Shown here: positions 6,011-28,313 of the stretch, one piece after another
Layout of the letters: the number at the start of each line of letters is the position of its first letter
Position numbering within the stretch: position 1 is the stretch's first letter
The notes under the pieces: generated by a model
What the model was told of the DNA's origin: nothing
The model's database searches: none
What the model saw: the letters and a program-made list of their open reading frames with translations, nothing else
Translations under genes and position numbers: made by a program
DNA from: Candidatus Saccharimonadota bacterium
Lineage (GTDB): Bacteria > Patescibacteriota > Gracilibacteria > BD1-5 > UBA2023
Assembly: GCA_046350815.1 (NCBI GenBank)
Contig: JAXLZO010000001.1
Coordinates: 150,001-182,000, forward strand
Reading direction: 5' to 3'
Length of the DNA stretch: 32,000 nt

Positions 6011-6088
6011 TGGGGCGGACGATGGGACTCGAACCCACGACCTCCAGAGTCACAATCTGGCGTTCTAACCAACTAAACTACGACCGCC
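6011..6088 (-). tRNA. tRNA-His (anticodon GTG) with encoded G-1 and encoded 3' CCA.
   Basis: The reverse complement folds as a cloverleaf: anticodon stem CCAGA/TCTGG, loop TTGTGAC, T arm GTGGG-TTCGAGT-CCCAT, and a D loop containing GG. An extra 5' G opposite C73 is the His identity element. There is one T:T mismatch at positions 5:68 in the acceptor stem. Confidence 0.9.
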
Positions 6089-12080: not shown

Positions 12081-13043
12081 CTATCACTCAATCACAAACA
12101 CTCTTGATTGTTTTTTTGTGAGTATGAGCTTCCCTATTTGTTTCTTGGTTCCACCGTCAGCAGTCAATATATATCTCTCGATCTCTGTGATGTTTCCACG
12201 ACTCAATCATTGTCGGCTTCATTGGTGTGCCTTGGAATAGAGATAAGAAATGATGGAGTCTCTTAACGTGCTGTGTTGCTCTTGAAATCAAACCACACTG
12301 AAACCTCTATCTTCTTCAAAATGGTTCTCTTGGAGAAATTTTTCTACCTGTACTTCGATATAATTATTAATATCTTGAGCATATTCTGAGAATTCACTCA
12401 TTTTTCGATCCAATGATGGGTATTTTTCTCGAACCTGTGGAAGAATCTTATTTCGAAGCCAGTTTCTTCGATAAGAAACATCTTTATTCGTACTATCCTC
12501 TCTCCATTCAATACTATGCTCACGAATATAGATAAGGATCTCATTCTGCGAAAGAGAGAGAAATGGCCGTAGGATACCATCTGAAAAGACTTGCATTCCA
12601 ACAAGACCGACAAGAGATGAACCAGACAACCAACGCATCATGATTGTCTCTGCTTGGTCTGTCTGATGATGAGCAGTAACGATGCAAGATGCACTATGAA
12701 TTTTAGCAACTTCACGCAATGTTTGATATCTTGCTTCACGTGCACGAGATTCCAAATTATTCATATTTGAGAGATCGAGGTGAAGCAATTGTTCAAAAAA
12801 TGCAATATCCCGCCCTTCACACCATACCTTTATAAATTCACCATCGCTTGTACTTTCTGGGCGAATCCCATGATTGATATATACAACTATGTATGTGCCC
12901 CTTGGAAGAGTAAGATACGCAGCATGAAGCAAGACCATAGAATCCTTGCCTCCTGATATGGCAAGCAAAAGTGGTGATTCTGAAGACGGAATAATATTAT
13001 ATTTGCTAAGAATATCGAGAAAATATTGTTGCAACTTATGCAT
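12081..13043 (-). CDS. tilS: tRNA(Ile)-lysidine synthase, 320 aa, four in-frame TGA in the C-terminal part.
   Basis: Track ORF 12288-13043 carries the PP-loop LAISGGKDSMVLL. I extended it codon by codon through TGAs to the TAG at 12081-12083. Confidence 0.88.
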
Positions 13044-13359
13044 ATCGACTTGTATTCTGAGGAATATCCGGATTCATTTTTGAATAAAGCTTGTCTATCA
13101 TATCATCACTCGCGACAATATTTCGATTTTTTGCTCAACATTTGATGCACTCATGAATGATCATCCATCCTTTCTTTGAATGAGATTCCAGTCCGATAGC
13201 CCGCATTTCTCCAGCGCAATCACTCGCTCGATCGCCAGGGAATTCAAGATCAACATGAAGTGATGAGAGGCAGTATGGGCAATGGTTACGAGCAGATCAT
13301 TGTGGATGACGAGATACTTTTTGACCACAAAACTGGCAATCAAAAGTGTCGTTGATCAT
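13036..13359 (-). CDS. RNHCP-domain zinc-ribbon protein, 107 aa, two in-frame TGA. Its stop overlaps the tilS start.
   Basis: Hand translation gives MINDTFDCQFCGQKV...G-SARNHCPYCLSSLHVD...GDRASDCAGEM...HECIKCG. It contains the literal RNHCP motif plus CxxC pairs. I counted 108 codons. It is in a different frame from track ORF 13161-13343. Confidence 0.7.
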
Positions 13360-13404
13360 GATAAACATAGAAAATTGAAGATACATTTATGTGAAATTGT
13401 ACAC

Positions 13405-13458: not shown

Positions 13459-16400
13459 TTATTCTTTTGTAATTGAGAATGTTCCACCATTTGATCGGAT
13501 GGTAATTTTCTTGCTATCTGAAGTAACATTATCCTGAGAACCATTCATTCAAGCATTATCAGAATTGAAGTTTTTACTTAGTCATCCAAGTCCAGTATTT
13601 GAAAGATCAATTTGATATAATCTATTGGTCAAATCAACAAAATTGGATGGTAACTGCGTCAGATTTGGATTATTTCCAGCTTGAAGCCGAGTGAGTAATG
13701 TCATTCGTGAAATACTCTCAGGCAAAGATAGAAGATTGTTTTTTCGAACATCGACTGTCTTTATTCATGTCATATCTCCAATGCTATCAGGAAGTTGCTC
13801 CAATCAAACATGAAAGAGTTGGAGACTCTGTAACGAAGTCAGTCCACTAAATGATGCTGGCAATCTCTTTAGAGTCGTTCATTGTTCCCCGAGATCAAGA
13901 GTTTGGAGAGATCGAAGCTTTCCAAAACTCTCAGGGAGAGGATTTGGATTATCTGCTCCAGCGCCGAGACTATTATTAAAAAGGTTGAGATCAGTGAGGG
14001 ATGTAAGCTCTCCAAAAGAGGAAGGGAGTCTCGCAATAGCGTTATTAGAGAGATCAAGTGTACGGAGAGATCACAGATCACCAAAATTCGATGGAAGATC
14101 CGTAAGAGCATTATCAGAAAGATTCAGAACTTGTAGACTCGACATCTTGGAGAATGTATCAGGCAATCGTGAGAGCGTATTATTGTGGAGATCTATCGTT
14201 GTACGATTGAGTTTGTAGAACGAATCTGGGAGTGTCTTGAGATCGTTATCATAGAGCATAAACTCATTGATCTTGATGTCTCCAAAATGATCTGGCAATC
14301 GAGTGAGCTTATTATTATTAAGATAGATAGATACAGATGGCGTAGTATCGACCAAAAAACCATAAGCACAGTTTGCCCATGCCCAATATTCATCCGTTAG
14401 AACATAAGGATATGTTACCCATATTCTATCAGCTGGAGGTTGTGGCGGACAAACATTTATAGCTGTCCCCTTGCGATCGGAGAGAAATCCACTGCCGAGA
14501 TTATCAAGTTGATTGTATTGTAAATTCAGTGTTGTAAGGCTCGTAAAACCAGTAAAAGCATTTGGAAGTGTGGTAAGGTTATTACGATTAATATTAAGAG
14601 TTGTAAGCTTCTCCATGCCACCAAACGAATCTGGGAGAGAGCTTATCTGATTATTAGAAAAATTAATAACTGCGAGCTTCTTTAATCCACTCAGTGGAGC
14701 GGTGAGAGTACTCGGGAATCAGAGAAGTTTGCTGTTGGTGATCGTGAGTGTAACAAGATTGGCAAGTTTACCGAAGTCTGGTGAGAGAGTGAGAGGAACA
14801 ATGTTGTTATTGATAGTCAAAGTAGCAAGACTCTCCATTCCACCGAACGAATCAGGAAGTGAGCTGATTTGATTGCTAGAAAAATCAATCGTCGTCAGTC
14901 TCTTCAGACCACTGAGTGGAACAGTGAGAGTACTCGGGAATCAGAGAAGCTTACTATTCGTGATAATCAGAGTGGTGAGATTTGCAAGATTACCAAAATC
15001 AGGTGAGAGAGTGAGAGGAGCACGATTATCAACAATAGTAAGAGTAGTGAGACTAATATTATCCCCAAAACCAAGTGGTAAGGATTCAAGATCATTGTAT
15101 GAGAGAATCATTGAGGATACATTCAATAAACCAATAGACGATGGAAGATTCGTGAGCTTATTGATACTCAGATCCAAATAGCCAGTGAGATGAAGATTCC
15201 CAAAATCTGGCGATAATGACACAAGTTGATTATTTGTAAGGTTGAGTGATATTAATTGAGAAAGTTGTCCAAAGCGTTCTGGAAGTCTCGTGAGTTGATT
15301 ATTATTGAGAGAAAGAGTATTGAGATTCACAAGTTTTTCAAAATCACTCGGAAGCTCTCGTAATGATCCGTAAGAAAGATCAAGGTAGATGAGGCTGGTA
15401 AGTTGACTAAACGATGTCGGCAGCGAAGTGAAAGCAGATCTAGATAAGCCGTCGCCTCACATTTGTAGATTATTAAGTTTCGGAAGGCTGGTTATAACCT
15501 CAGGAAAAGTAGTAATTCTATTATTTCTATAACTGAGAGTAACGAGCTCGGTAAGACCAGAAAATGATGCTGGCAAATTGCCAATAGAATTATTATCAAG
15601 ATTCAACGTTTGAAGTTTCTTGAGATTCCCTATTCCTTCAGGAAGGGCTGTCAAACCAGCATCAGCAAAACTTAAACTCATTAAATTTTTAAGCTTCCAA
15701 AAAGCATCAGGTATTGCCTTGTTATGACGAATAGTGACGGAAGTAAGTGCACAGAGTTCTCGTGGTCAGTATGCATCATCATTTCCATAATAACCATAGG
15801 CATTGCTCGTCAAGAATGTATTTACGGTTTTTATCTCAGATTCTGTTAATCCACATTCATTATCCGATGTCTTTCCAAACCCAATTTGTAGTGGAGTGCC
15901 ATCTCAAGCACTCCTGATACTCATAAGCTCATTTGGACGACCAATCGTTGGATAAGGACTATTATTGCGCCATACCGATCCTGTTTGCTCAGCATACAGA
16001 CTACCAGAGCTTTCAAAAAGACGAGAGAGATTTTTGAGGCCAGTATTCGAAGAGAGATCAAAATAGTATAGATTTGTATACTTAGTCAACTGATCTGGGA
16101 TATGGCTGATATTATTAAAAGAATAATCAATCGAATGAATTCGAGGGTTCAATCTATCATAAGTATCGTAGTAGTGTCAGTAGTAACCTCAATAGTTAGT
16201 ATTGGTTAGTGATTGACTGATTCGAGTGATGTTATTATGTGCTAAGTTTAGCTTCTTGAGAGATGGAAATGAACACGCTTGCCAGCCACCAAGACCATTA
16301 AGAGCCCAAAATCCACCAGCTATAGTTGTGATCCGATTGTAAGAAAGATCAATTTCGGTCATTCATGAATTCCAGCATCAGACTGCTTGGATGCCCATAA

Positions 16401-19230
16401 AATAAGAATCGTAATAAGAATTTCTGACTTCAAGGAAGTTATGTGAGAGATTGATCTTGGTTACGGATCGTGGAAGTTCCGGCAAATGAGTGAACTGATT
16501 GTATGAGAGATTGAGATCGGTTACTCCTCGGAGTTTTTGTATTCCCGTCGTACTAATATTCGCATTAGTGAGTGATCCACTTGAGAGATTGATAGCACCT
16601 GTGCCAGTACACCATCCATCAGCCGTCCTTGTTTCTCATGTCAGCTCGTTCAGTTTTCGTACTTCAGATCGTTTGAGCTCACAAGCAAGAAGTCATACCT
16701 CAATAGTAATAGCATTAGGACTATGTGTTATCTTTACAGGCGATCCATCTGGAGTCATATCTGACTCATTCGAAGAACTACTCGCATAGTATACTCACTT
16801 TTGCCAGTTACTCGCGAGACTTTTCAGCTGGTTATTTCATGAGAGATTCAAATTCGATAACTTATTTGAAAGTGTAACAATCGAGTCTGGGAGAGTCTTG
16901 AGTTTATTGTTCGCAAGATTCACCGTAAAAGACTGAAGAGTAGAGTATGAGTAGCATCAATAATAAAAATCACAGTAAGAATTATTAACATATATTGGCG
17001 CAGCAAAAAGTGTCGTGAATGTCTCAGGAAAAGATGTAAGTTTGTTGTTAGAGAGATTAAGTGTTGTGAGGCTTTTCAATCCTCAAGTACTACTCGCTCC
17101 AAATGTGTCCGGCAGAGTCGAAAGATTGTTGTTAGAGAGATTAAGTGTTGTGAGTTTCATTAGTCATCCGCCAGCACTCAGACCAAATGCATCTGGAAGT
17201 TGAGTGAGACCACGTCATGATCAGAGCGATGAAGCGTTGAACACACTCAAATTCTTGAGTGATCCAAATGAATCTGGAAGAGCATGAATATCATGCCCTG
17301 ATATATCGAGATAATAGAGACTTTGTAAATCACCAAATGCGCCTGGTAGACTCGTAAGAGTACCAGTATTAGAGGCGTAGAGATATGATAATTTGGATAA
17401 TTTTGTGAAAGAATCTGGGAATTTCTGAAGACGATTATTACTTATATCAAGTATCGTTAATGAATTTTTGATACTGCTATCAAAAATATCTGGAAGCGAT
17501 TCAAGAGGATTATTCGTGAGATAAATAGTTGAAAATCAACGTATGGATCCAAAAGAATCCGGCAAACTCTTCAGATTATTTTGTGAAAGATTTATAGTGC
17601 TAAGTTCATAGGAACTCATTTCACCAAGATGATCACCAAAATGTTCACCGAGTTGGGTAAGTTTTCCATTTTGATTTGTAGCATTGAGATTTCTAAGTTT
17701 TTTGAGATTACCGAATGTATTGGGAAAAGTGCGGAGATAGTTGTTAGCTAAATCAATGTATGCAAGATTTGGAAGATTACCAAGACTCTCTGGAAGTGCT
17801 TCAAGATTGTTATTCTGAAGGGTAAGCGTTGAGAGGCTCGGAAGTCAAGAGAATGATGCCTCATTGATACGTGAGAGTTGTCCATTTTGGGATGGTGCGA
17901 TGAGCGTATAAAGCTTTGGGAGTTTGCCAAAATCATCTGGAAAACCCGTAAGACGATTATTAGTAAGATCAAGAATGAGAAGATTCGACATATCTCCTAT
18001 ACCTGAAGGCAGAGAACTGAGTTTATTATTCTGGAGATATAATATCTGAATATTCGTCAACTTACCAATCGATCCGGACATCGAAGCAATACGATTAGAG
18101 GAAAAATCTAGTGTTCATGAGAGATTGAGATTTCCAAAGGAATCTGGGATAGAATCAATATAGTTATATGAAGCATTGAATGATCCTGAGAGGAGCGAGA
18201 GATTGCCTATATTTTGAGGAAGCTTTGCAAGTCGATTGTAGGTGAGCTGAAGATTCGAGATTTTTGTGAGTTCACCAAATCACTCAGTGAGATCCTGTAT
18301 ACCACTACAACGTGCATCAAAAGATTCAAGATTTTTGAGATTCTTGATCGAATCAGGAAGCTTTGTAAAGGTGCCATATGGCTGACAGTAAGTCGGAATA
18401 GCACTAAGCCAGTCAGCACTACCACCTGTGTAAGAGTAATACCAGTAACCAGTGTTATTAGTATTATTATTTTTCAAATCAATGCTCGTAATTTGAGTGA
18501 GTTCACCAATGCTTTCTGGAAGAGTACTAAATCGGTTGTAGCTTAGATCGAGTTGTGGTTTTAACTTCTTCAACGCTCAAAAATCATCTGGAAGTGTTGT
18601 TAGAAGATTATGATGCAAAGTGAGTGTTTCAAGATTGATCAGTCGACCAATACTCTGTCGTGTTGTACCAGAGAGACTCAATAGACTATTTCTCGATACA
18701 TTCAGTGTGACAAGATTTTTGAGTCGATATACTCCTGTTGGGAGAGAAGAAATACCACGATCTGATATATCCAAAGTAGTTGCGTTACACCACTTGAATT
18801 TATCCCAGTTTCTCACTTCTCGCGAGAGACGATTGAGCTCGGATGCCTGAGCATCATTGAGTCCACAGTCGCCAGGATTACGAGGAGCCTTACAGAGGAG
18901 AACATTATTCTCACCCGTGATTCCGTATGCTACCTTATCTGGAGCACATCAGAGTGGATAAGTAGTCATATTGAGCTTTGTCCTGATCTCATCGATAGTA
19001 ATACACTTAAGTTTGTATACACCGCCAGTCAGAGTGTATCCCATAGATACAGAATCACTCGGACACACATTGATAGCTCAACTGAATAATCAAGCGATCG
19101 GAGCGTTAATCTGAGAATTTATTGGTTGTGCTACACTTGGAGTATCAAGAGCAAATACAGATGTGTTGATAAACACACTTGCAAGGAATCAAGCAAGCAA
19201 ACAAAGAGAACGAGAAAGAGATTTTATCAT
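13459..19230 (-). CDS. Giant secreted multi-module leucine-rich-repeat protein, 1923 aa, 33 in-frame TGA.
   Basis: All LRR-bearing track fragments (14071-14616, 14941-15330, 15457-15681, 15904-16152, 17845-18081, 18280-18573, 18577-18816) share one frame. I scanned every triplet in all gaps between these fragments from 13459 to 19230 and found 33 TCA (TGA) and no TTA or CTA. The start ATG at 19228-19230 is preceded by an in-frame TAA. The N-terminus is signal-like (MIKSLSRSLCLLAGFLASVFINTSVFA). Dozens of LxxLxLxxNxLxxLP repeats follow, broken by Cys-capped linkers. Confidence 0.85.
14608..15052 (-). repeat. Tandem 222-bp (74-aa, three-LRR) duplication inside the LRR gene.
   Basis: The 26-nt core GTGAGAGTACTCGGGAATCAGAGAAG occurs at 14702 and at 14924, exactly 222 bp apart, with clearly similar flanks. 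The conserved core includes an in-frame TGA. Confidence 0.8.
17042..17154 (-). repeat. 84-bp (28-aa) tandem LRR unit with an identical 29-nt core.
   Basis: TTGTTGTTAGAGAGATTAAGTGTTGTGAG occurs at 17042-17070 and at 17126-17154. Confidence 0.8.
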
Positions 19231-19238
19231 ACAAAAAA

Positions 19239-19622
19239 TTAATCAACTTCATTACAAATCACTGCACCAGTAGAACTAAATCCAACCAGAAAATTATTTA
19301 TCTTGCTCGGATCACATTCTTTGTTTTTGATATTATCACGCGTAGTTCCACTCAGAACCTTATCTTTAAACTCAATAATTCACATACAGTTTTGTGTAAT
19401 GCCAGAGCTCATACTACCAGTATATCCAAGAGCTACTCCTGTAGAATTACAGTTTTGAAAGAGCGAAGTAAAATGTGTACTGAGTGTACCACCAGTTGAT
19501 TCACCGGTTGGAGTCTCTGGCCAGAGACTCGCAATATCATCAGCAAATATCCATGTACCTGATACTCAGATGAATAGAGTCACAGCACTCAAGAGAGTAG
19601 TGGAATTGAAATATTGTTTCAT
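19239..19622 (-). CDS. Small secreted four-cysteine protein, 127 aa, two in-frame TGA. Paralog of 19631-20011 and of the LRR protein N-terminus.
   Basis: The ATG at 19620-19622 is followed by a signal-like MKQYFNSTTLLSAVTLFIGVSGTWIFA. The mature part is ...FQNC-NSTGVALGY-...QNC-...KEC-...LVGFSSTGAVIC. The stop is the TAA at 19239-19241, 8 nt upstream of the LRR gene ATG. Confidence 0.65.
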
Positions 19623-19630
19623 ATAATTTT

Positions 19631-20011
19631 TTATTGAAGTTTCTGGCATTTTTTCCCTCCAGTCGAGGTAAATCACACTAACAACGATCCCTCATCACAT
19701 TTTTGTGCATTCGTCTGAGATTGTGCCTGAAGCGCAAAGAGATCACGAAGCTCATCCATTGTTATGCAGTTCTGTGATTTAGTATTTGGGTCATAACCGA
19801 GTGAGATACTACCAGATCCACACTCTCGGAAAAAACGATCAAAATTATCACGAAATACTCCTCCGCTCTTCTCACCAGATGGTTGAACGGTCGGGAAATC
19901 TCAAGGTGTCAGCAGATAATCATTCGAGAAAGATGCAAAAGCAAGCGCTCATCCGCCGATAGAGAGAGTCATTATGAGCGGAAAAATATACTTTCGAAGG
20001 TTTTGTTTCAT
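19631..20011 (-). CDS. Small secreted four-cysteine protein, 126 aa, three in-frame TGA.
   Basis: The ATG at 20009-20011 is followed by a signal-like MKQNLRKYIFPLIMTLSIGGGALAFA. The mature part is ...FRECGSGSISLGY...QNCITMDELRDLF...QKC...LLVGFTSTGGKKC. I verified this by reverse-complementing every line. The stop is the TAA at 19631-19633, 8 nt upstream of the next ATG. Confidence 0.65.
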
Positions 20012-20128
20012 ATACAGAATTTACTTTTTTCTATTACATCACATATTGTGTAAAAACACGAGAAAATTATATAGACAACTAATGGTTATAATTTTTTATA
20101 CATTAATCTAAATTCTATGGGATAAAAA

Positions 20129-20156
20129 TTGACAGAACAAAAGCAAAAAGTATAGC
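20129..20156 (+). promoter_or_regulatory. Sigma-70-like promoter: TTGACA, 16-nt spacer, TATAGC.
   Basis: An exact -35 hexamer at 20129-20134, a 16-nt spacer, and a -10-like hexamer at 20151-20156. No protein gene lies downstream on this strand. Confidence 0.4.
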
Positions 20157-20159
20157 TTC

Positions 20160-20273
20160 ACAGTTCATCGTGTCTATGTGCTACGGTCAAGCTAGCAACC
20201 GTCCAACGAAGTGCATTGGTCACACTGAGTTGAATACCAATTTTCAACAAAAAACTAGCAATTTGCTAGTTTT
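20160..20273 (+). ncRNA. Candidate small RNA, about 110 nt, unknown family, bounded by a promoter and a terminator.
   Basis: It lies between the promoter at 20129-20156 and the hairpin AACTAGCA-ATT-TGCTAGTT+TTT at 20249-20273. Internal hairpins are ACGG-TCAAGCTAGCAA-CCGT and ATTGGT...ACCAAT. There is no convincing ORF. Confidence 0.3.
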
Positions 20274-20329
20274 AAGCTCTCAACACTCCAGAAAAAATAC
20301 TATCCTTTAAACACTCATATTTAATATAT

Positions 20330-20358
20330 TTGACAAATAAATTATTATATGCAATAAT
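20330..20358 (+). promoter_or_regulatory. Sigma-70-like promoter: TTGACA, 17-nt spacer, AATAAT.
   Basis: An exact -35 hexamer at 20330-20335 and an AT-rich -10-like hexamer at 20353-20358. Confidence 0.4.
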
Positions 20359-20364
20359 ACTCTT

Positions 20365-20467
20365 GTTCTTGCCAAAATGAGGTAAGGATCCAGGTCAGGA
20401 TTGGATTATTCTGCCCTGCACCGCAAGGTGTTTACAACCCCGTCGATTTCATACGATGGGGTTTTTT
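20365..20467 (+). ncRNA. Candidate small RNA, about 100 nt, unknown family, ending in a strong intrinsic terminator.
   Basis: It has a GNRA-capped hairpin CACC-GCAA-GGTG, a hairpin CAGGTCAG...CTGCCCTG, and the terminator CCCCGTCG-ATTTCATA-CGATGGGG+T6 at 20438-20467. It converges on the rnc stop codon. Confidence 0.3.
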
Positions 20468-21199
20468 CTATATTTTCTCTTTCATCCATTCATTCTTTTT
20501 TGAGAGAGCATCTTTTGCAGCCTCTTGCTGAGCCTTTCTCTTGGATGAAGATGAACCCTGTCCAATCACCTTTCCTATTAATACAATATTCATCTCATAA
20601 ATGTGATCATGATCTGGACCAGATTCTGCCGTGAGGACATATTCTGGCAAACAATTGAAATATTGTTGTGTAAGTTCCTGCAAATATGATTTTGGATCAA
20701 TATGACGAGATTCTTCGAGAATCTGAGGAAGTGTTGAGAAAATATGTTTTGATATAAACTCTCTTGTCACATCGATACCTCAAGCAAGATAGAGGCTTGC
20801 TATAAATGCTTCAAGTACATTCGCAAGAATATAGGGATTTTCCCGTCCTTTATTTTTTTCTTCTCAGACTGATACAACAATAGCACTTCCCAGGCCGATA
20901 TTTGCAGCTACGAGAGCAAGATTATTTCCACGCACCAGAGCAGAGCGAAGATCCGTAAGATCTCCTTCATTCTTTTCTGGATAGAGACTGTAGAGATATT
21001 CTGTTGTAATGAGCTCAAGTACCGCATCTCAGAGAAATTCCAACCGTTCATTGGAAGAAGTGAGAAATTCATATTCATTGAGTGCTGAGCGATGAAAAAA
21101 AGCCTGTACGAAGCGTTCACTAGGATAATGAGCAAGTTGCAGTCGAGAGAGAACGTCAGATACTTGGACAAGATGATCAGAAGATGTAAATCGAGACAT
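20468..21199 (-). CDS. rnc: Ribonuclease III, 243 aa, three in-frame TGA.
   Basis: The ATG at 21197-21199 is in frame with track ORF 20468-20770 (dsRBD, ...KRKAQQEAAKDAL). The catalytic signature is NERLEFL-G(TGA 21029-21031)-DAVLEL. Confidence 0.9.
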
Positions 21200-23789: not shown

Positions 23790-23813
23790 TCCTCGCAATT
23801 GCGAGGATTATTT
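23784..23813. terminator. Bidirectional terminator between the DUF2726 gene and the last pilus gene.
   Basis: The hairpin is ATAATCCTCGC-AATT-GCGAGGATTAT. It overlaps both stop codons. Confidence 0.65.
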
Positions 23814-24776
23814 ACTGAATACACTGTATTTGAGTCCATCGAGAAGATCCGAGTTATTCTGACAGAATTTATAGAACTGACCTCGTGCATTGTTGCCTCT
23901 TCCCACCTCCGCTGTTGCGTAAATACAAGGTTTTGGTGAAGAAAAAGGAATAGCAGAAGCTGATCCAACGGACGTGGAAGTGAGATTATATTCTATGCTA
24001 TCTGATTGATTATTGAACAGAACAAGAAAAGGCTTTGTATATGTGAATGTCCCACCTGAAAGAAAGTTTGATATGGTATCAGGGCTATCCTTTACATATT
24101 GTTCTCAGATCGTTCCATTGAGGATACGAAGAGCACCTGAAGAAGATGGACCAGCTATCTCTCCCGTACCAGCAAGACCAATAGTTTCAGATCCACTACT
24201 TACAAGAATATTCCATGATAATGCTCATGTGGATGCAGTTGATGCAGATGGAACTGTAAGATTAAGTTTGAAATTCTTTGTAAATGTTGCTGTATCACTT
24301 CAAGACCATGTTTTTAATCAAGAACAAGTAAGCAAAGACGAAGCGCTACCGGTGTCAGTATACAACGGGATAATTTCATATCCACCCCCTGCAATTGTGC
24401 CAGTGTAACTCGTCTCTTGTGATTTCATTTCATATCCTATTTTGAGCGAATGACTCATAATATCAATACTTCCAGAATCACTCCGTAATACCTTGGAAAT
24501 ATCACACGCATCATCTCGTTTAAGAGTGTCTTCAAAACCATGGTCATGATGCTTTTTCTTGAGGAGAGCATACTCGAGAGCTCATTCTGAGCCATATTGG
24601 GTTGCAATACCTGATGAAAGCGTGCGAGTGATTTTGTTTTCCTCGACAAAGAGCCAGAGGAGACTTGCTGTAACCACCGTCAAAAAACCAATGAGAAGCA
24701 CGACAATAATAGCAACAAATCATTGCTTGTCTTCTTGAAGAGAACGCGATCGCGATGAAAAAAAAGATGATGTCAT
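23808..24776 (-). CDS. PilX/GspK-like pseudopilin (no Glu5), 322 aa, six in-frame TGA.
   Basis: I verified the full hand translation line by line and found no TAA/TAG. The N-terminus is ...QEDKQ-G(TGA 24720-24722)-FVAIIVVLLIGFLTVV. It is in a different frame from track ORF 24455-24649. Confidence 0.65.
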
Positions 24777-24777
24777 A

Positions 24778-25458
24778 TTAGTCGGCCTTATACATCTTGG
24801 TGCTAAATATTGTATCAATATGGAGTTTGGTGCTCTCAATAAGTTCCTGGGATATGCCACTTCCAGGACGAGCTTCGAGTGTCATAAGGAGTCGCACCTT
24901 TGGTAGAGTCGATATACCAACATTTATCCCTCCTCAAATACCACCAGCACCACCAACATTCTCCCCCATTTCTTCAAATGTGAGGGATGTGACTCGTACA
25001 CGGTCAGAAGTAAGGCGAATATTCCCGTCAAGTTCAGTTTTCACAAGAGCACAATCAGCTATTCCATCTATAATGCATGGAGCAGATAAATCTTGTATTT
25101 TTGGATAATAACCAAGGGATATTATTGGTGTACCACCTGTGCCAATCAAGAAACCAGAACTCGTTCGATACTTATTTGTAGATGTATCAATATTTGATAC
25201 ATCACCTTCGGCTGTAGTAAACAAAAACCCCTTCTCCCGCACATCCTTCGCAATAGCCTCGGTAATAGCGCGAGCACTTTCCTGCACTTCACGCTGCACC
25301 TCGAGTTTGCGTGAGAGAGTCATAACCTGAGTATATACCTCAAAAGCCGACAGCATCATCAAGCTGAAGATCGATATTGAAATCATGAGCTCGATAAGAG
25401 TAAATCAACCTCGTGAAGAAGCAACTGAAGTATGAGAGCGAGATGAAAAAAGAGACAT
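24778..25458 (-). CDS. Prepilin-type N-terminal cleavage/methylation-domain protein (PilW/GspJ-like minor pilin), 226 aa.
   Basis: The ATG at 25456-25458 is in frame with track ORF 24934-25386. The N-terminus is ...SSRG-G(TGA 25405-25407)-FTLIELMISISIF. Confidence 0.75.
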
Positions 25459-25460
25459 AA

Positions 25461-26057
25461 TTAGCGTTTCCAGTCGGTTATAAGCGTTGAGAGAGTATAT
25501 GTCCTCTTCGGAACTTCTGTTGATACAACAGAAGTAATTTTGAGTGTATCGGGCATAGACAGGCTCCCATCATCAGATCAGATAGTTTCCACCTTAAGAA
25601 CTTTTCGAAATTTCGTAGGAGTTTTGTAGGTAGCACTGTCACAATAGCCATATCGTGGAGTATTTGCTTCACGACAAAGTTTGTTATTATCACTTGGTGT
25701 TTTTTCAGTGACCTTTAGTTTGAATTGATTATGGATTGAATCAAGCTCTTCTTTAAGAAGATAATCTTTTCAACTGAGTAAGTATTCAGATGGCGTCATG
25801 TTTCCGTTACTACCACTCCAAGCTCTCAATGCGACCCAATTCGTATCACGCATATTCTTAACTTCTTCAATATCCGATCGCATCAAATTATAAGCAATAA
25901 TCTCATCTTGACTCGATGCTGAGAGAAAATTCGCTCGTTCGAGCATCATATACGCCCCAACGAGTCCAATACTAAAAACTGCCATCGCAATAATAAGCTC
26001 AATGAGCGTAAATCATTGATTGGATGAGAGAGAAGAACGAGTAGTGGAAAAATACAT
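25461..26057 (-). CDS. Prepilin-type N-terminal cleavage/methylation-domain protein (PilV/GspI-like minor pilin), 198 aa.
   Basis: The ATG at 26055-26057 is in frame with track ORF 25770-25985. The N-terminus is ...SSNQ-G(TGA 26013-26015)-FTLIELIIAMAVF. I checked the downstream part line by line to the TAA at 25461-25463. Confidence 0.75.
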
Positions 26058-26059
26058 AA

Positions 26060-26656
26060 CTATCGAGGAGAGAGGGTAACGGTTTTTGTCAGTGTTGGAT
26101 CATCACCGAGTTGAAGAAGAAGTTTGACATCAGATTGAGAGATTCATCAAGAAAGTGTTTGAGAGCCTGATCCATTCGGTGCCTCAAAGAAGATGTATCA
26201 AGTGGACGTAGAAGAAGTTACAGTGGTTCATCCAATTGCCTTAATACGAATTCTTTGATCCACAAGAGTTATGGGAGAGAGGCTACAACTTGAGAATGAA
26301 GAACTACAGCTTGTATATACCGTTGGAGACGAAGGGCGATATCGAATATAGTTCACCGTTGGAGCCATTATGCCCCCATTTGGATTAATCTCGATCGCCG
26401 TACTTGCTGTTTCTTCAATACTTCAACCTTTAAAGAGAAAACCGTTACTTGCCTCACTCTTCGCCTGAGATACCAGTTGTTCAAACCGTGCGACCTGCGT
26501 ACGAACCCTCTGCTTGTCACTAAAATAATTATAGGGGGCAGCAGCGAATGTTGCAAGAATCGCAATGATAGCAATAACAATCATCATCTCAATGAGCGTA
26601 AAGCCACTTCGAGATGATGAGAGAGCTGATTGGGAACGAGAACCAGAAAAAAACAT
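26060..26656 (-). CDS. Type IV pilin-like protein (possible major pilin or FimT/GspH-like), 198 aa, five in-frame TGA.
   Basis: The ATG at 26654-26656 gives MFFSGSRSQSALSSSRSG/FTLIEMMIVIAIIAILA. I extended it codon by codon through TGAs to the TAG at 26060-26062. Confidence 0.75.
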
Positions 26657-26666
26657 AGAAGAAGAA

Positions 26667-27758
26667 TTACCCACCAACACTCTGAGTGATCTGAATAATA
26701 GCGGCAAATATCGCAATCGCAAACCAAAGTACAAATACAGATGCAAAGATAATAGCAAGCGGTTCAACAAATTTCACCAACATTTGCACGGACATATCCA
26801 CCTCTCGTTTGTACTGAGCACTGGAACGTTCAGCAACTTTATTAATGGTAGATGTTCTCTCACCAGCAGCTACAAGCTGCACAAAGTCACGAGGAAATAT
26901 AGTGTGCTCTGGATCAGCACCCTCGATACTCTCAGCAATACGATCGCCTTGCTCTACCCGCTTTGCAACATCTTCGAGGAGCTCTTCGCTCACCACATTC
27001 TCAGATGCTTCTCCAGTAAGACGGAGCGTACGAACAATAGGAATACCAGAAGACAAAAGGAGTGAAAACATGCCAGTAATTCGCACCATCAAGTAGTTTC
27101 GTAGGAGAACACCAATAACAGGAAATTGAAGGAGAAATTGATCTCTCGCTCGAGCTCATTCATAGCTCGAAAAATACACCTTAAAAAAGACAATAACGGT
27201 AGATCCAATAATAAAAAGTACAAAGAACCAATTCTGAACAAAAGTACTGCAAACAATAAGCATCTTTGTGACAAATGGTAGTGTAGCTCAAGTTGATTCA
27301 AAAAGCGGCATAAGTCGAGGAACAATATAGAGCATCACACCCATCACTGCGATGATGAGTACGACAAATACCATAATTGGATACGTCATTGCACCCTTAA
27401 TCTTGTTCTTGATATCCTGCATTTCACGAAGTTCAACAGCAAGAGAGACGAGAGACCTCTGGAGAGTTCCTGATTGCTCCCCCGCTTCAATGACTGCAAT
27501 TTCACCACGATCAAATATTCGAGGAAGCTTCTTGAGGGCCGTTGAGAGCGGATCACCAGAGCGAACAAATTCGGTAATAGTGACTACTTCTTGTTTGAGT
27601 CGAAGATTGTCAGTTTTATCAGAGAACGATGAGAGTGCCTCGAGAATGGTCACACCACCTTCGACAAGATTCGAAATATGCTCATAGAACAATGCCTTGT
27701 CTTGGGTTTTTATTTTTGTGAGACGAAGTGCTATTGCACTCAAATCAAAGATTGCCAT
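26667..27758 (-). CDS. pilC: Type IV pilus assembly platform protein PilC (GspF family), 363 aa, two in-frame TGA.
   Basis: Track ORFs 27288-27758 and 26667-27092 share a frame, and I checked the gap for stops. The GspF-type repeats are ...EAGEQSGTLQRSL... and ...AAGERTSTINKVAE..., with three TM segments. Confidence 0.85.
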
Positions 27759-27767
27759 AGAAGATAT

Positions 27768-28313
27768 TTATTTTGCATCGAGATAATACACTTCGAGTGC
27801 GAGGCTCAAATCAAATGGACCAGTTCATTCAGGCATAGTGAAGCTCTTGAGAAGAATTCGACGATTTTCACCTTCAGATGCAAGCAAATTATTGATAAGT
27901 TGGCGAAGATCAACCACGCTATTTACATGAAAAGAAACATTCATATTTGCACGAGAGAGGCCACTTGGATCTTGTGCTCAGCGAGACATACTAATATCCT
28001 TGAGCTCTGCTGAGGCACCAACTATGGATCGAATATTAGCAAGGAGTTCATCTTCACGATATGCACCAGCATAACGAGCTACTTGTTTCTTGAAAGCTTC
28101 ATCTTTCAAGCGCTCTTGAAGAGCAGTTAATTCTGCTTTCGTTGCTTTTTTTACCGTTTGAGCTGTTTGAAGTTCATTCTTGGTATTTTGTAGCCCGATA
28201 TACTGTTGAAAGTAATCATACGTCACAAAGAATCAAATCAGAAGAGTGATGAGAAAAAGAAACACTCCAAGTACATCTTGAGAGGAAGCACGATATTTAG
28301 TAGTTTGAGTCAT
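27768..28313 (-). CDS. pilO: PilO-like pilus assembly protein, 181 aa, three in-frame TGA.
   Basis: The ATG at 28311-28313 is followed by a TM segment (VLGVFLFLITLLIGFFV), a coiled coil (NELQTAQTVKKATKAELTALQERLKDE), and a C-terminal alpha/beta part ending ...FDLSLALEVYYL. This is the PilO architecture. Confidence 0.6.

What the first reader, a model, noticed from the sequence alone, without database searches (positions are those of the whole stretch)
19239..20011. Two small secreted four-cysteine proteins share a novel module with the N-terminus of the giant LRR protein and form a tight three-gene operon with it
Two roughly 126-aa ORFs lie head-to-tail immediately upstream of the LRR gene, with 8-nt intergenic gaps at each junction. 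Each has a signal-like N-terminus. Their mature parts align with each other and with residues of about 60-120 of the LRR protein:
- F-x5-C-x5-(L/M)GY-x7-12-C-(I/M)-x-(I/M)-(D/E)-E-...-C-x4-9-(V/A)-(G/Y)-(F/G)-x-(S/T)-x-G-x3-4-C
- compare ECGSGSISLGY...QNCITMDELRDLF...KC...LLVGFTSTGGKKC
- with NCNSTGVALGY...QNCMGIIEFKDKV...EC...FLVGFSSTGAVIC
- and VCPSDSVSMGY...LKCITIDEIRTKL...GC...VAYGITGENNVLLC

I do not recognise this domain. One possibility is free-standing copies of the adhesin head domain that act as decoys, co-receptors, chaperones or alternative tips. The architecture, soluble paralogs plus a fused copy on a giant repeat stalk, looks like an undescribed surface or host-interaction system.
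Basis: seen in the sequence. Interest (0 to 1): 0.75.

Follow-up and report, generated by a model that had tools for sequence, protein, structure and literature searches.

The report
Gracilibacteria small-small-giant LRR adhesin cassette
Two small secreted proteins and a 1,923-residue leucine-rich-repeat surface protein of an uncultured Gracilibacteria bacterium share a previously unannotated, disulfide-braced domain and are always encoded together, so they probably act as one cell-surface attachment complex in a group of bacteria whose way of gripping other cells is unknown.

Summary
The window uses genetic code 25 (TGA = Gly). On the minus strand lie gene A (20011-19631, 126 aa), gene B (19622-19239, 127 aa) and a 1,923-aa LRR gene C (19230-13459), separated by 8-nt gaps. 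All three have signal-peptide-like N-termini followed by an ~80-aa four-Cys module. The homology is statistically robust: A-B E=3e-14, and an HMM built from small proteins alone finds the giants' N-termini at 24-32 bits against 10.5 bits or less for shuffles. The A-B-giant order recurs in every related locus recovered, across at least four lineages. A, B and C types are ancient separate clades, and all are under purifying selection (dN/dS 0.15-0.22). New points: the module is an internal duplication of a ~45-aa unit (helix plus Cys-closed beta-hairpin). Single or triple units also sit at the N-termini of other Gracilibacteria adhesin-like proteins, in one locus again with free-standing small copies upstream. 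No Pfam, NCBIfam, PDB or Foldseek match exists, and the family is tiny and specific to Gracilibacteria. The best reading (confidence about 0.4) is a shared docking/assembly module that builds a hetero-oligomeric surface complex carrying the LRR arm. The "decoy head domain" idea is not supported. Function remains inferred.

The parts
19631..20011 (-). Gene A: 126-aa small secreted module protein (NCBI MFO0763401.1, 'hypothetical protein' U0518_00825); three in-frame TGA = Gly codons
   Evidence: dN/dS 0.22 vs the L002 ortholog
19934..20011 (-). A signal-peptide-like N-terminus (aa 1-26, ...ALAFA|SF)
   Evidence: read from the sequence; equivalent motif in all orthologs; no predictor was run
19634..19897 (-). 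A module (aa 39-126): FP-x3-P-x-GE-x2-GG, helix, Cys64-hairpin-Cys82, helix, Cys105-hairpin-Cys122
   Evidence: alignments; module HMM E=1e-38; AF2 secondary structure H51-62, E68-74, E79-84, H85-99, E109-114, E120-124
19623..19630 (.). 8-nt A-B spacer (AAAATTAT between TAA and ATG)
   Evidence: 1-12 nt in all relatives
19239..19622 (-). Gene B: 127-aa small secreted module protein (NCBI MFO0763400.1, 'hypothetical protein' U0518_00820)
   Evidence: dN/dS 0.17
19242..19523 (-). B module (aa 34-127): WPETPTGESTGG..., Cys58/79/103/123
   Evidence: (E=3.5e-35)
19231..19238 (.). 8-nt B-C spacer (TTTTTTGT between TAA and ATG)
13459..19230 (-). Gene C: 1,923-aa LRR protein (NCBI MFO0763399.1), 33 in-frame TGA codons
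   Evidence: Pfam LRR_8 E=4e-115, LRR_14, LRR_4
19150..19230 (-). C signal-peptide-like N-terminus (aa 1-27, ...SVFA|LD); the only hydrophobic segment in the protein
   Evidence: Kyte-Doolittle scan
18892..19125 (-). C-type module (aa 36-113), Cys56/76/95/113
   Evidence: module HMM E=7e-28; small-protein-only HMM E=6.5e-5, 26 bits vs shuffled max 10; dN/dS 0.15
18787..18867 (-). First LRR N-cap, bracketed by Cys122 and Cys148 (CGLNDAQASELNRL...WDKFKWC); this separates the module from the first LRR
   Evidence: similar caps recur at aa ~850-874 and ~1126-1160
13513..18786 (-). LRR super-domains, each of the form [N-cap - LRRs - C-cap]; Cys residues occur only in closely spaced pairs
13462..13512 (-). 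C-terminal LRR cap motif KKITIRSNGGTFSITKE. It is conserved in all giants and also occurs internally (aa ~828-845), so it is a cap and not an anchor or sorting signal
20012..20467 (-). 456-nt spacer between rnc and gene A. The cassette promoter presumably lies here but was not located: the only minus-strand promoter-like hit (20176..20149) lies in a ~110-nt segment absent from L002

Best explanation
The cassette encodes three Sec-exported proteins that share a Gracilibacteria-specific ~80-aa module made of two copies of [amphipathic helix + disulfide-closed beta-hairpin]. A and B consist of the module alone. C carries it at its mature N-terminus, ahead of about 1,800 residues of capped LRR solenoids. 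I propose that the module is a docking/assembly domain. After export and disulfide formation, the A, B and C modules associate non-covalently into a hetero-oligomer, most simply A:B:C. A and B act as base or adaptor subunits that hold the N-terminal end of the LRR arm at the cell envelope, and the LRR array projects outward to bind another cell or surface. The tight, probably translationally coupled gene order would supply the three subunits together. What is shown: the genes, the recoding, the homology, the conservation, the fixed synteny, purifying selection, ancient paralogy, the absence of any other anchor, and the absence of any known family. What is inferred: export, disulfide pairing, complex formation, surface location and the binding target.
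For: (1) The order A-type, B-type, giant-with-module is invariant, with 1-12-nt gaps, in every related locus with enough flank: the window, L002/L003, L009/L010, L011, L012/L013, L001 and L005/L006. The flanking genes differ between loci (rnc/nusB and RNHCP/tilS in the window; rpsT/infC/rplT and an ABC ATPase in L005), so the cassette is the conserved unit. (2) A, B and C types are separate clades across lineages (bootstrap 0.78, 0.84, 0.995). All are under purifying selection (dN/dS 0.15-0.22). This indicates three non-redundant partners, not recent duplicates. (3) The giant has no TM segment beyond its signal peptide and no LPXTG, and its conserved C-terminal motif is an LRR cap. The N-terminal module is therefore the only candidate for retention or assembly. 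(4) The simpler one-unit form always sits just after the signal peptide of other adhesin-like Gracilibacteria proteins (BspA LRR_5, TSP1, Ig-like). In L007 two free-standing one-unit proteins (76 and 79 aa) precede, in one tightly spaced operon, a large protein that starts with the unit. So 'free copies plus an N-terminal fused copy' arose or persisted in two forms. Some proteins carry three tandem units in one chain, which matches the three-module count of the cassette. (5) The module is the best-conserved part of the giant (43% vs 32-39% identity to L013), as expected for an interaction core. (6) Cys counts are even and locally paired, which fits a rigid, disulfide-braced extracellular interaction domain.
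Against: There is no direct evidence of any interaction. No multimer prediction could be run. The monomer model has only moderate confidence (pLDDT 59 overall, 68-77 in the core). A and B have no recognisable envelope anchor either, and they are acidic (pI 4.3-5.1), so how a complex would stay on the cell is unexplained unless one signal peptide stays uncleaved. In L005/L006 a second giant (G2) has only one small partner, so a strict 1:1:1 stoichiometry is not universal. P0017-type proteins carry a second unit internally, so the unit is not exclusively N-terminal. Co-transcription has not been demonstrated.
Confidence: 0.4

Rival explanations
1. Filament model, a stronger version of the best explanation. 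A and/or B polymerise through the module into a thin Sec-dependent fibril, and the LRR giant is incorporated through its own module as the tip or terminal adhesin. This is analogous to adaptor subunits plus a tip adhesin in pili, but without known pilus machinery.
For: The small-small-adhesin gene order resembles fimF-fimG-fimH (general knowledge). The module is internally duplicated, which could permit head-to-tail contacts. Gracilibacteria and Absconditabacteria are described as having fibrous surfaces (PMC8080830).
Against: No assembly machinery (chaperone, usher, sortase, prepilin peptidase target) is in the cassette. There is no class III signal peptide or N_methyl motif in A, B or C, although Pfam detects that motif in a neighbouring true pilin. 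The even, locally paired Cys leave no free thiol for covalent cross-links. Nothing marks A or B as an abundant major subunit.
Confidence: 0.15
2. One reading: the module is a ligand-binding 'head'. A and B are soluble secreted copies that act as decoys, co-receptors or scouts for the same ligand that the giant's N-terminal domain recognises.
For: A and B have no anchor and are predicted to be released. They are small, disulfide-rich domains like many lectins and toxins. Free-standing and fused copies coexist.
Against: In LRR proteins the LRR array is normally the binding surface (general knowledge). The module is next to the signal peptide and separated from the LRRs by a dedicated cap. There is no sign of diversifying selection: the module has the lowest dN/dS (0.15) and is more conserved than the LRRs. 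Three ancient, individually retained paralog types are not expected for redundant decoys. The same unit prefixes proteins with quite different binding domains.
Confidence: 0.15
3. A and B are dedicated export or folding helpers (extracytoplasmic chaperones or templates) for the giant. They transiently pair with its N-terminal module to prevent misfolding or aggregation of the very long LRR chain as it emerges from Sec.
For: Their position upstream in a tightly spaced operon and their obligatory co-occurrence with a giant. They share a fold with the first part of the giant to emerge from the translocon.
Against: Known periplasmic or extracytoplasmic chaperones are not paralogs of a domain of their client (general knowledge). 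Two distinct conserved helpers would be unusual. The unit also occurs on much smaller proteins (246-540 aa) that should need no such help.
Confidence: 0.1
4. No functional coupling beyond shared ancestry. The module is a generic, stable extracellular spacer or stalk domain in Gracilibacteria. A and B are independent small secreted proteins (for example signalling or antimicrobial peptides) that remain next to the giant through tandem duplication and operon inertia.
For: The function of every component is unknown. The unit occurs in varied architectures. In L005/L006 giant G1 carries frameshifts while A and B stay intact, and in L001 the A gene is cut by an IS-like element, so the parts can decay independently.
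Against: The order and tight spacing are preserved across lineages with only 30-45% protein identity and different genomic neighbourhoods. Neutral inertia rarely preserves that in small, rearranging CPR genomes. A parallel arrangement exists in the one-unit family (L007).
Confidence: 0.15

Closest known systems
Bacterial LRR surface adhesins/invasins (internalin-like proteins, BspA/LrrA-type proteins)
   Same: Sec signal peptide, long LRR arrays with N- and C-terminal caps (Pfam LRR_8, LRR_4, LRR_14), presumed cell-cell or protein binding, often encoded in multigene loci.
   Different: No LPXTG, GW, lipobox or other known anchor. The N-terminal four-Cys module has no counterpart in these families. 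Two free-standing paralogs of that module are obligatorily co-encoded. The caps are Cys-bracketed.
Type 1 pilus tip fibrillum FimF-FimG-FimH (chaperone-usher pili)
   Same: Works-like analogy only: two small adaptor subunits encoded just before a large adhesin that contains the same assembly domain fused to a binding domain.
   Different: No Ig-like pilin fold or donor-strand signature was detected. No chaperone or usher genes are present. In FimH the shared domain is C-terminal, here it is N-terminal. The host is a CPR bacterium (a related Absconditabacterium has a Gram-positive-type wall, PMC8080830); no outer-membrane usher gene is present in the window. There is no sequence similarity.
Type IV pilus / T2SS minor-pilin tip complexes and modular pilins (GspI-J-K, PilV/W/X + PilY1, S. 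sanguinis PilB/PilC)
   Same: Several small paralogs plus one large paralog whose shared N-terminal module is fused to a bulky functional domain. Type IV pilus genes lie within 4-8 kb in the window and next to a three-unit protein in L014.
   Different: A, B and C lack the class III signal peptide, N-methylation motif and hydrophobic alpha1-N helix, which Pfam does detect in the neighbouring true pilin. Their N-termini look like ordinary Sec signal peptides with an AxA-type site.
Eukaryotic cysteine-rich LRR N-terminal caps (LRRNT, LRRNT_2)
   Same: A four-Cys domain N-terminal to an extracellular LRR array.
   Different: No Pfam hit. The module is separated from the first LRR by a separate Cys-bracketed cap, exists as free-standing proteins, and precedes non-LRR domains such as TSP1. 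It is therefore not an LRR cap.
SLH-type triple anchoring modules of S-layer and cell-surface proteins
   Same: Works-like analogy: short helical modules of about 50 aa placed right after the signal peptide, functional as a set of three. Three tandem units occur in P0020-P0025, and three modules are supplied by A+B+C.
   Different: No sequence similarity. The module is disulfide-braced and contains beta-hairpins. The modules are acidic. No evidence of binding to a cell-wall polymer.

Membership tests
LRR superfamily (Pfam clan LRR; LRR_8/LRR_4/LRR_14), gene C only | Tandem LxxLxLxxNxL repeats detected by curated models above the gathering score | tested here: met
   LRR_8 376 bits (cut-off 27), LRR_14 353 bits, LRR_4 265 bits
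Internalin-type anchored LRR adhesins | Cell-wall or membrane anchor (LPXTG sortase signal, GW modules, lipobox or C-terminal TM) | tested here: not met
   No LPXTG-like motif, no hydrophobic segment besides the N-terminal signal peptide, no lipobox; the C-terminal motif is an LRR cap
Type IV pilins / minor pilins / modular pilins | Class III signal peptide with N-methylation motif (G|F/M-x3-E) and hydrophobic alpha1-N helix (Pfam N_methyl) | tested here: not met
   No N_methyl hit in A, B or the C N-terminus at E<=1. The same library detects N_methyl in the neighbouring gene at ~25.5-26.1 kb. The N-termini end in AFA|S, IFA|D, VFA|L.
Chaperone-usher pilus subunits (FimF/G/H-like) | Ig-like pilin domain and adjacent chaperone and usher genes | tested here: not met
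   No Pfam, NCBIfam or PDB-profile hit. The flanking genes are rnc, nusB, RNHCP and tilS.
Sortase-assembled pili | LPXTG sorting signal on each subunit and a sortase gene nearby | tested here: not met
   A ends ...CQKLQ and B ends ...CNEVD. No LPXTG in C. No sortase among the window genes examined.
LRRNT / LRRNT_2 cysteine-rich LRR caps | Match to PF01462/PF08263 and direct packing onto the first LRR | tested here: not met
   No Pfam hit. A separate cap (Cys122-Cys148) intervenes. The module also occurs free-standing and on non-LRR proteins.
Any curated protein family or solved structure (Pfam-A, NCBIfam, PHROGs, PADLOC, PDB sequences, PDB/BFVD folds) | Significant sequence-profile or structural match to the module or unit | tested here: not met
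   Zero family hits. Best PDB profile E is 0.49 and 0.04, both spurious. Best Foldseek E is 0.9 (PDB) and 0.13 (BFVD), TM <= 0.28. Caveat: the model has only moderate confidence.
Proposed new family: Gracilibacteria 'helix + Cys-hairpin' unit / double-unit module | [FWY]P-x3-P-x-GE-x2-GG-x-F-x3-F...C-x5-h-x-G[YF]-x(4-10)-C, optionally followed by helix + C-x4-9-hxG[FIV]-x-S/T-x-G-x2-4-C; located after a Sec-type signal peptide | tested here: met
   A, B and C match the unit and module HMMs. The four Cys and G-Y are invariant or nearly so in 19 sequences. Hairpin 1 aligns with hairpin 2 by hhalign at P=7e-5.
Hetero-oligomeric surface complex (functional claim) | Physical association of the A, B and C modules | not testable with these tools
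   No multimer prediction is available. The single-chain tool refuses code-25 window sequences and fusions.

The most novel reading that the evidence does not exclude
The ~45-aa helix + Cys-hairpin unit defines a new, Gracilibacteria-specific class of self-associating docking domain. Three copies, supplied either by three polypeptides (A+B+giant) or by one chain (the three-unit proteins), form a pseudo-trimeric base that mounts diverse binding arms (LRR_8 giants, BspA LRRs, TSP1/Ig proteins) on the envelope of these monoderm episymbionts or predators. Assembly would be independent of sortase, pilus machinery or known wall-binding modules. This would be a previously unknown way of building the host-attachment surface of CPR bacteria.
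Probability: 0.25. Interest if true: 0.8.

Novelty: new variant of a known kind. Interest (0 to 1): 0.55.

Why it matters
Gracilibacteria and their relatives are uncultured or barely cultured bacteria with reduced genomes. They are thought to live attached to, or prey on, other microbes, and the molecules that mediate attachment are essentially unknown beyond type IV pili and unspecified 'giant proteins' (PMC8080830, PMC11452946). This cassette gives a concrete, conserved and experimentally tractable candidate: two ~100-residue disulfide-stabilised proteins and a defined N-terminal module that can be expressed and tested for mutual binding, plus an LRR arm that can be tested for target binding. 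It also defines an unannotated domain family. All members are currently labelled 'hypothetical protein', and several were missed or truncated by gene callers using the wrong genetic code. A profile for it would improve annotation of surface proteomes in code-25 bacteria. If the module proves to be a new anchoring or assembly principle, it would add to the short list of ways in which monoderm bacteria display adhesins.

Tried and rejected
- Two scans of GTDB species-representative genomes (B-type and C-type patterns) found no relative. TGA-encoded Gly may hide some matches, and the lineages are poorly represented.
- One attempt with the full 11-sequence alignment was rejected as too diverse.
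- A unit-only search of the 5.8-billion-protein collection returned a single hit, because short or edited queries defeat the exact-word index.
- The first AF2 run (8 sequences) was too poor to use (pLDDT 48). The accepted 15-sequence run reached pLDDT 59.
- Foldseek against PDB and BFVD gave only noise.
- P0011 and P0026, with 18 HYR-like repeats, are repeat-inflated false positives of the HMM search.
- The conserved C-terminal tail of the giants first looked like a sorting signal. I rejected this because the same motif occurs internally before the next N-cap, so it is an LRR C-cap.
- Three small genes beside RNHCP-tilS in L014, in the position of A-B-C, turned out to be unrelated.
- The minus-strand promoter-like site at 20176..20149 is not credible. 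Promoter-like hits are at the shuffle expectation (23 found vs 22.4 expected), and the segment is absent from L002.
- Lipoprotein, pilin, phage and defence-system affiliations were considered and excluded.
- P0017 could not be located on any contig.
Full report
**1. The sequence and the genetic code.**
Under the standard bacterial code the region 13.4-20.0 kb is a patchwork of short ORFs. Reading TGA as sense raises the longest open frame from 448 to 1,930 codons and roughly triples the ORF content of the window. A TGA in protein A aligns with GGA (Gly) in its paralog B. My table-25 translations are identical, residue for residue, to three NCBI proteins of a 1,283,673-bp contig of 'Candidatus Gracilibacteria bacterium':
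- MFO0763401.1, 'hypothetical protein' (A)
- MFO0763400.1, 'hypothetical protein' (B)
- MFO0763399.1, 'leucine-rich repeat domain-containing protein' (C)

**2. Anatomy.**
All three genes are on the minus strand:
- Gene A: 20011..19631, 126 aa.
- Gene B: 19622..19239, 127 aa.
- Gene C: 19230..13459, 1,923 aa.

The spacers are exactly 8 nt at both junctions. Each protein starts with a basic n-region and a hydrophobic core of about 19 residues that ends in AFA|S, IFA|D or VFA|L. I read this as a Sec signal peptide with a signal-peptidase-I site. That is a judgement by eye, since no predictor was available.

Gene C is a massive LRR protein (LRR_8 E=4e-115). It is organised as several super-domains. 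Each begins with a Cys-bracketed helical N-cap (for example C122...W-C148) and ends with a 'KITxxS...ITxE' C-cap. The last C-cap forms the C-terminus. C has no hydrophobic segment besides the signal peptide and no LPXTG. Its 18 mature Cys occur as nine closely spaced pairs.

The flanking genes are housekeeping: nusB and rnc upstream, RNHCP and tilS downstream.

**3. Is the three-way similarity real?**
Yes.
- BLASTP gives A-B E=3e-14, A-C 3e-5 and B-C 2e-4.
- A module HMM trained on the window and its closer relatives detects sequences that were not in its training set. These are the two LRR giants of a distant genome (E=1e-11 and 3e-10) and that genome's three small proteins (1e-19 to 1e-26).
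- An HMM trained on small proteins only finds the N-terminus of every giant (window 6.5e-5; others down to 2.6e-7). Real scores are 24-32 bits against at most 10.5 bits for 2,000 shuffled controls.
- In a 19-sequence alignment the four Cys and the G-Y/F dipeptide are invariant or nearly so. The only exceptions are truncated fragments.

**4. What the module is made of.**
The exhaustive HMM search of 1.84 billion representative proteins returned only about 20 hits. Besides orthologs of A, B and C it revealed multi-domain proteins that carry one to three copies of a shorter ~45-aa unit:

[FWY]P-x3-P-x-GE-x2-GG-x-F-x3-F-...-C-x-G-x3-V-x-G[FY]-x3-G-x3-C

The unit HMM matches the first half of A, B and C strongly. 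It also matches the second Cys hairpin of A-type proteins (iE about 2e-4). A profile-profile comparison aligns hairpin 1 with hairpin 2 (P=7e-5).

AlphaFold2 gives only moderate confidence: pLDDT 59 overall and 68-77 in the core (a first run scored 48). Both runs agree on the same topology:
- helix 51-62
- hairpin 68-84, spanning C64...C82
- helix 85-99
- hairpin 109-124, spanning C105...C122

The likely disulfides are C1-C2 and C3-C4. This pairing is inferred, but it is supported by the two-Cys single units.

**5. Is it known?**
No.
- No hit in Pfam-A, NCBIfam, PHROGs or PADLOC.
- No PDB sequence relative by profile search.
- No Foldseek match in PDB or BFVD (best E 0.9 and 0.13, TM <= 0.28). 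The caveat is that the query model has only moderate confidence.
- Every named member in public databases is a 'hypothetical protein [Candidatus Gracilibacteria bacterium]'.
- Many database copies carry W at Gly positions or are truncated, because the pipelines used code 4 or code 11.
- Full-text searches found no description of it. The papers consulted mention only type IV pili and unspecified giant surface proteins in these lineages.

**6. Synteny and evolution.**
Every related locus that could be recovered has the same arrangement: an A-type small gene, a B-type small gene, then a giant with the module at its N-terminus, with gaps of 1-12 nt.
- L002 and L003.
- L009, L010, L011, L012 and L013, from the metagenome scan.
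- L001, where an IS-like element has removed the 5' end of the A gene. A is intact in the sister loci L012 and L013.
- L005 and L006, where the triplet is followed by a second pair: a small protein (S3), an 8-nt gap, then a 1,605-aa LRR giant (G2) with its own module.

The flanking genes differ between lineages, so the cassette itself is the conserved unit.

A neighbour-joining tree of the mature modules puts A, B and C types in separate clades across lineages (bootstrap 0.78, 0.84, 0.995). The triplication is therefore ancient and each copy has been retained.

Code-25-aware dN/dS between the window and L002 is 0.22 (A), 0.17 (B), 0.15 (C module) and 0.19 (C LRRs). Against the distant L013 giant the module is 43% identical, compared with 32-39% for the LRR blocks. 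The giants are collinear over about 1,500 residues. Nothing suggests diversifying selection.

**7. The wider unit family.**
Units occur directly after the signal peptide in several other proteins:
- Proteins whose C-terminal parts are BspA-type LRR_5 (P0017, P0019).
- A protein with a thrombospondin type-1 repeat (L007, 529 aa).
- Cys-rich or Ig-like proteins.
- Proteins with three tandem units (P0020-P0025).

In L007, a different AT-rich recoded lineage, two free-standing single-unit proteins (76 and 79 aa) are followed, in one operon with 2-9-nt gaps, by three large secreted proteins. The last of these begins with the unit. The design 'free small copies plus an N-terminal fused copy on a large binding protein' therefore exists in two forms.

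One three-unit protein lies next to a GspE/PilB-type ATPase and near a large pilin-like protein. The window has type IV pilus genes 4-8 kb away. Because CPR genomes are rich in such genes, I treat this only as a weak lead.

**8. Mechanism.**
I favour a docking/assembly role for the module (confidence about 0.4). After Sec export and disulfide formation, the A, B and C modules associate into a hetero-oligomer that forms the cell-proximal base of the LRR arm. The arguments for this are:
- the obligatory, ordered, tightly spaced co-encoding;
- three ancient, non-redundant paralog types;
- purifying selection, with the module as the most conserved part of the giant;
- the lack of any other anchor on the giant;
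- the position of the unit next to the signal peptide across unrelated architectures;
- the recurrence of 'three' (A+B+C; three-unit chains).

The weaknesses are:
- there is no interaction evidence;
- A and B have no anchor either, and they are acidic;
- the second giant in L005 has only one small partner;
- some units are internal rather than N-terminal.

The rivals, with evidence for and against given in the structured fields, are:
- a pilus-like fibril with the giant as tip (0.15);
- dedicated folding or export helpers (0.10);
- mere co-location of paralogs (0.15).

**9. Verdict.**

The cassette is best classed as a new variant of a known kind, namely a modular surface adhesin with accessory subunits that share its assembly domain. 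It is built on a domain with no detectable relatives and is restricted to a few Gracilibacteria lineages.

Interest is moderate to high for CPR biology, because it offers a tractable handle on attachment. It is tempered by the very narrow distribution and the entirely inferential function.

Noticed in passing
window 20330-20472 (+ strand): Candidate ~105-nt small RNA gene between the rnc stop codon and gene A, on the opposite strand. It has the best promoter-like site of the region (TTGACA-17-AATAAT with TG, 20330-20358) and a canonical terminator (20436-20463 plus T-run). It folds into four hairpins, MFE -42.5 kcal/mol, z = -4.9. No Rfam family matches. It is 95% identical in L002, L009 and L010, better conserved than the neighbouring coding genes, and is not found by blastn in the distant loci.
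   Followed up: partly
window ~20132-20243 and ~20245-20270 (- strand): A segment of about 110 nt in the rnc-gene A spacer is absent from the L002 ortholog. It contains the only minus-strand promoter-like hit near gene A. Just upstream of it lies a perfect palindrome, AAAACTAGCAA/TTGCTAGTTTT, which is conserved in L002.
   Followed up: partly
window 23808-28313 (- strand): Type IV pilus gene cluster: an N_methyl prepilin-like protein (~25461-26060), PilC/T2SSF (26667-27758), and further pilin-like or PilO-like ORFs with no Pfam hit. It is not in the same operon as the cassette.
   Followed up: partly
L005 4513-4890 (also L004, L006): The B-type small gene (125 aa) was missed by the original JGI gene call, which instead called a spurious 75-aa antisense ORF. 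This is an example of mis-annotation in code-25 genomes.
   Followed up: yes
L001 ~518-1370: An IS/transposase-like ORF on the opposite strand abuts and removes the 5' end (signal peptide) of the A-type gene. The gene is intact in the sister loci L012 and L013.
   Followed up: partly
L005 4897-9934 and L006 4877-9934: LRR giant G1 is interrupted by frameshifts only (2 in L005, 4 in L006, at different positions). The adjacent giant G2 and all small genes are intact. This could be pseudogenisation, phase variation or indel noise in repeats; it is unresolved.
   Followed up: partly
window 12081-13386 and L014 1876-3162: The RNHCP-tilS gene pair lies immediately downstream of the cassette in the window. 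It lies about 3 kb from the three-unit protein P0021 in another Gracilibacteria genome, next to a GspE/PilB-type ATPase and a 563-aa pilin-like protein. This may be a remnant of microsynteny.
   Followed up: no
window gene C, aa ~828-845, 850-874, 1126-1160 (nt ~16696-16749 for the internal C-cap): The giant is built of repeated [Cys-bracketed N-cap - LRRs - 'KITxxS..ITxE' C-cap] super-domains. The C-cap motif is conserved in all giant paralogs.
   Followed up: partly
proteins P0011 and P0026 (not in the window): Proteins with 18 or 4 near-identical HYR-like repeats scored E~1e-18 in the representative HMM search purely through summed weak repeat matches. This is a false positive worth remembering when using that tool.
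   Followed up: yes
window 6011-6087 (- strand): The single tRNA gene in the window, tRNA-His (GTG).
   Followed up: no
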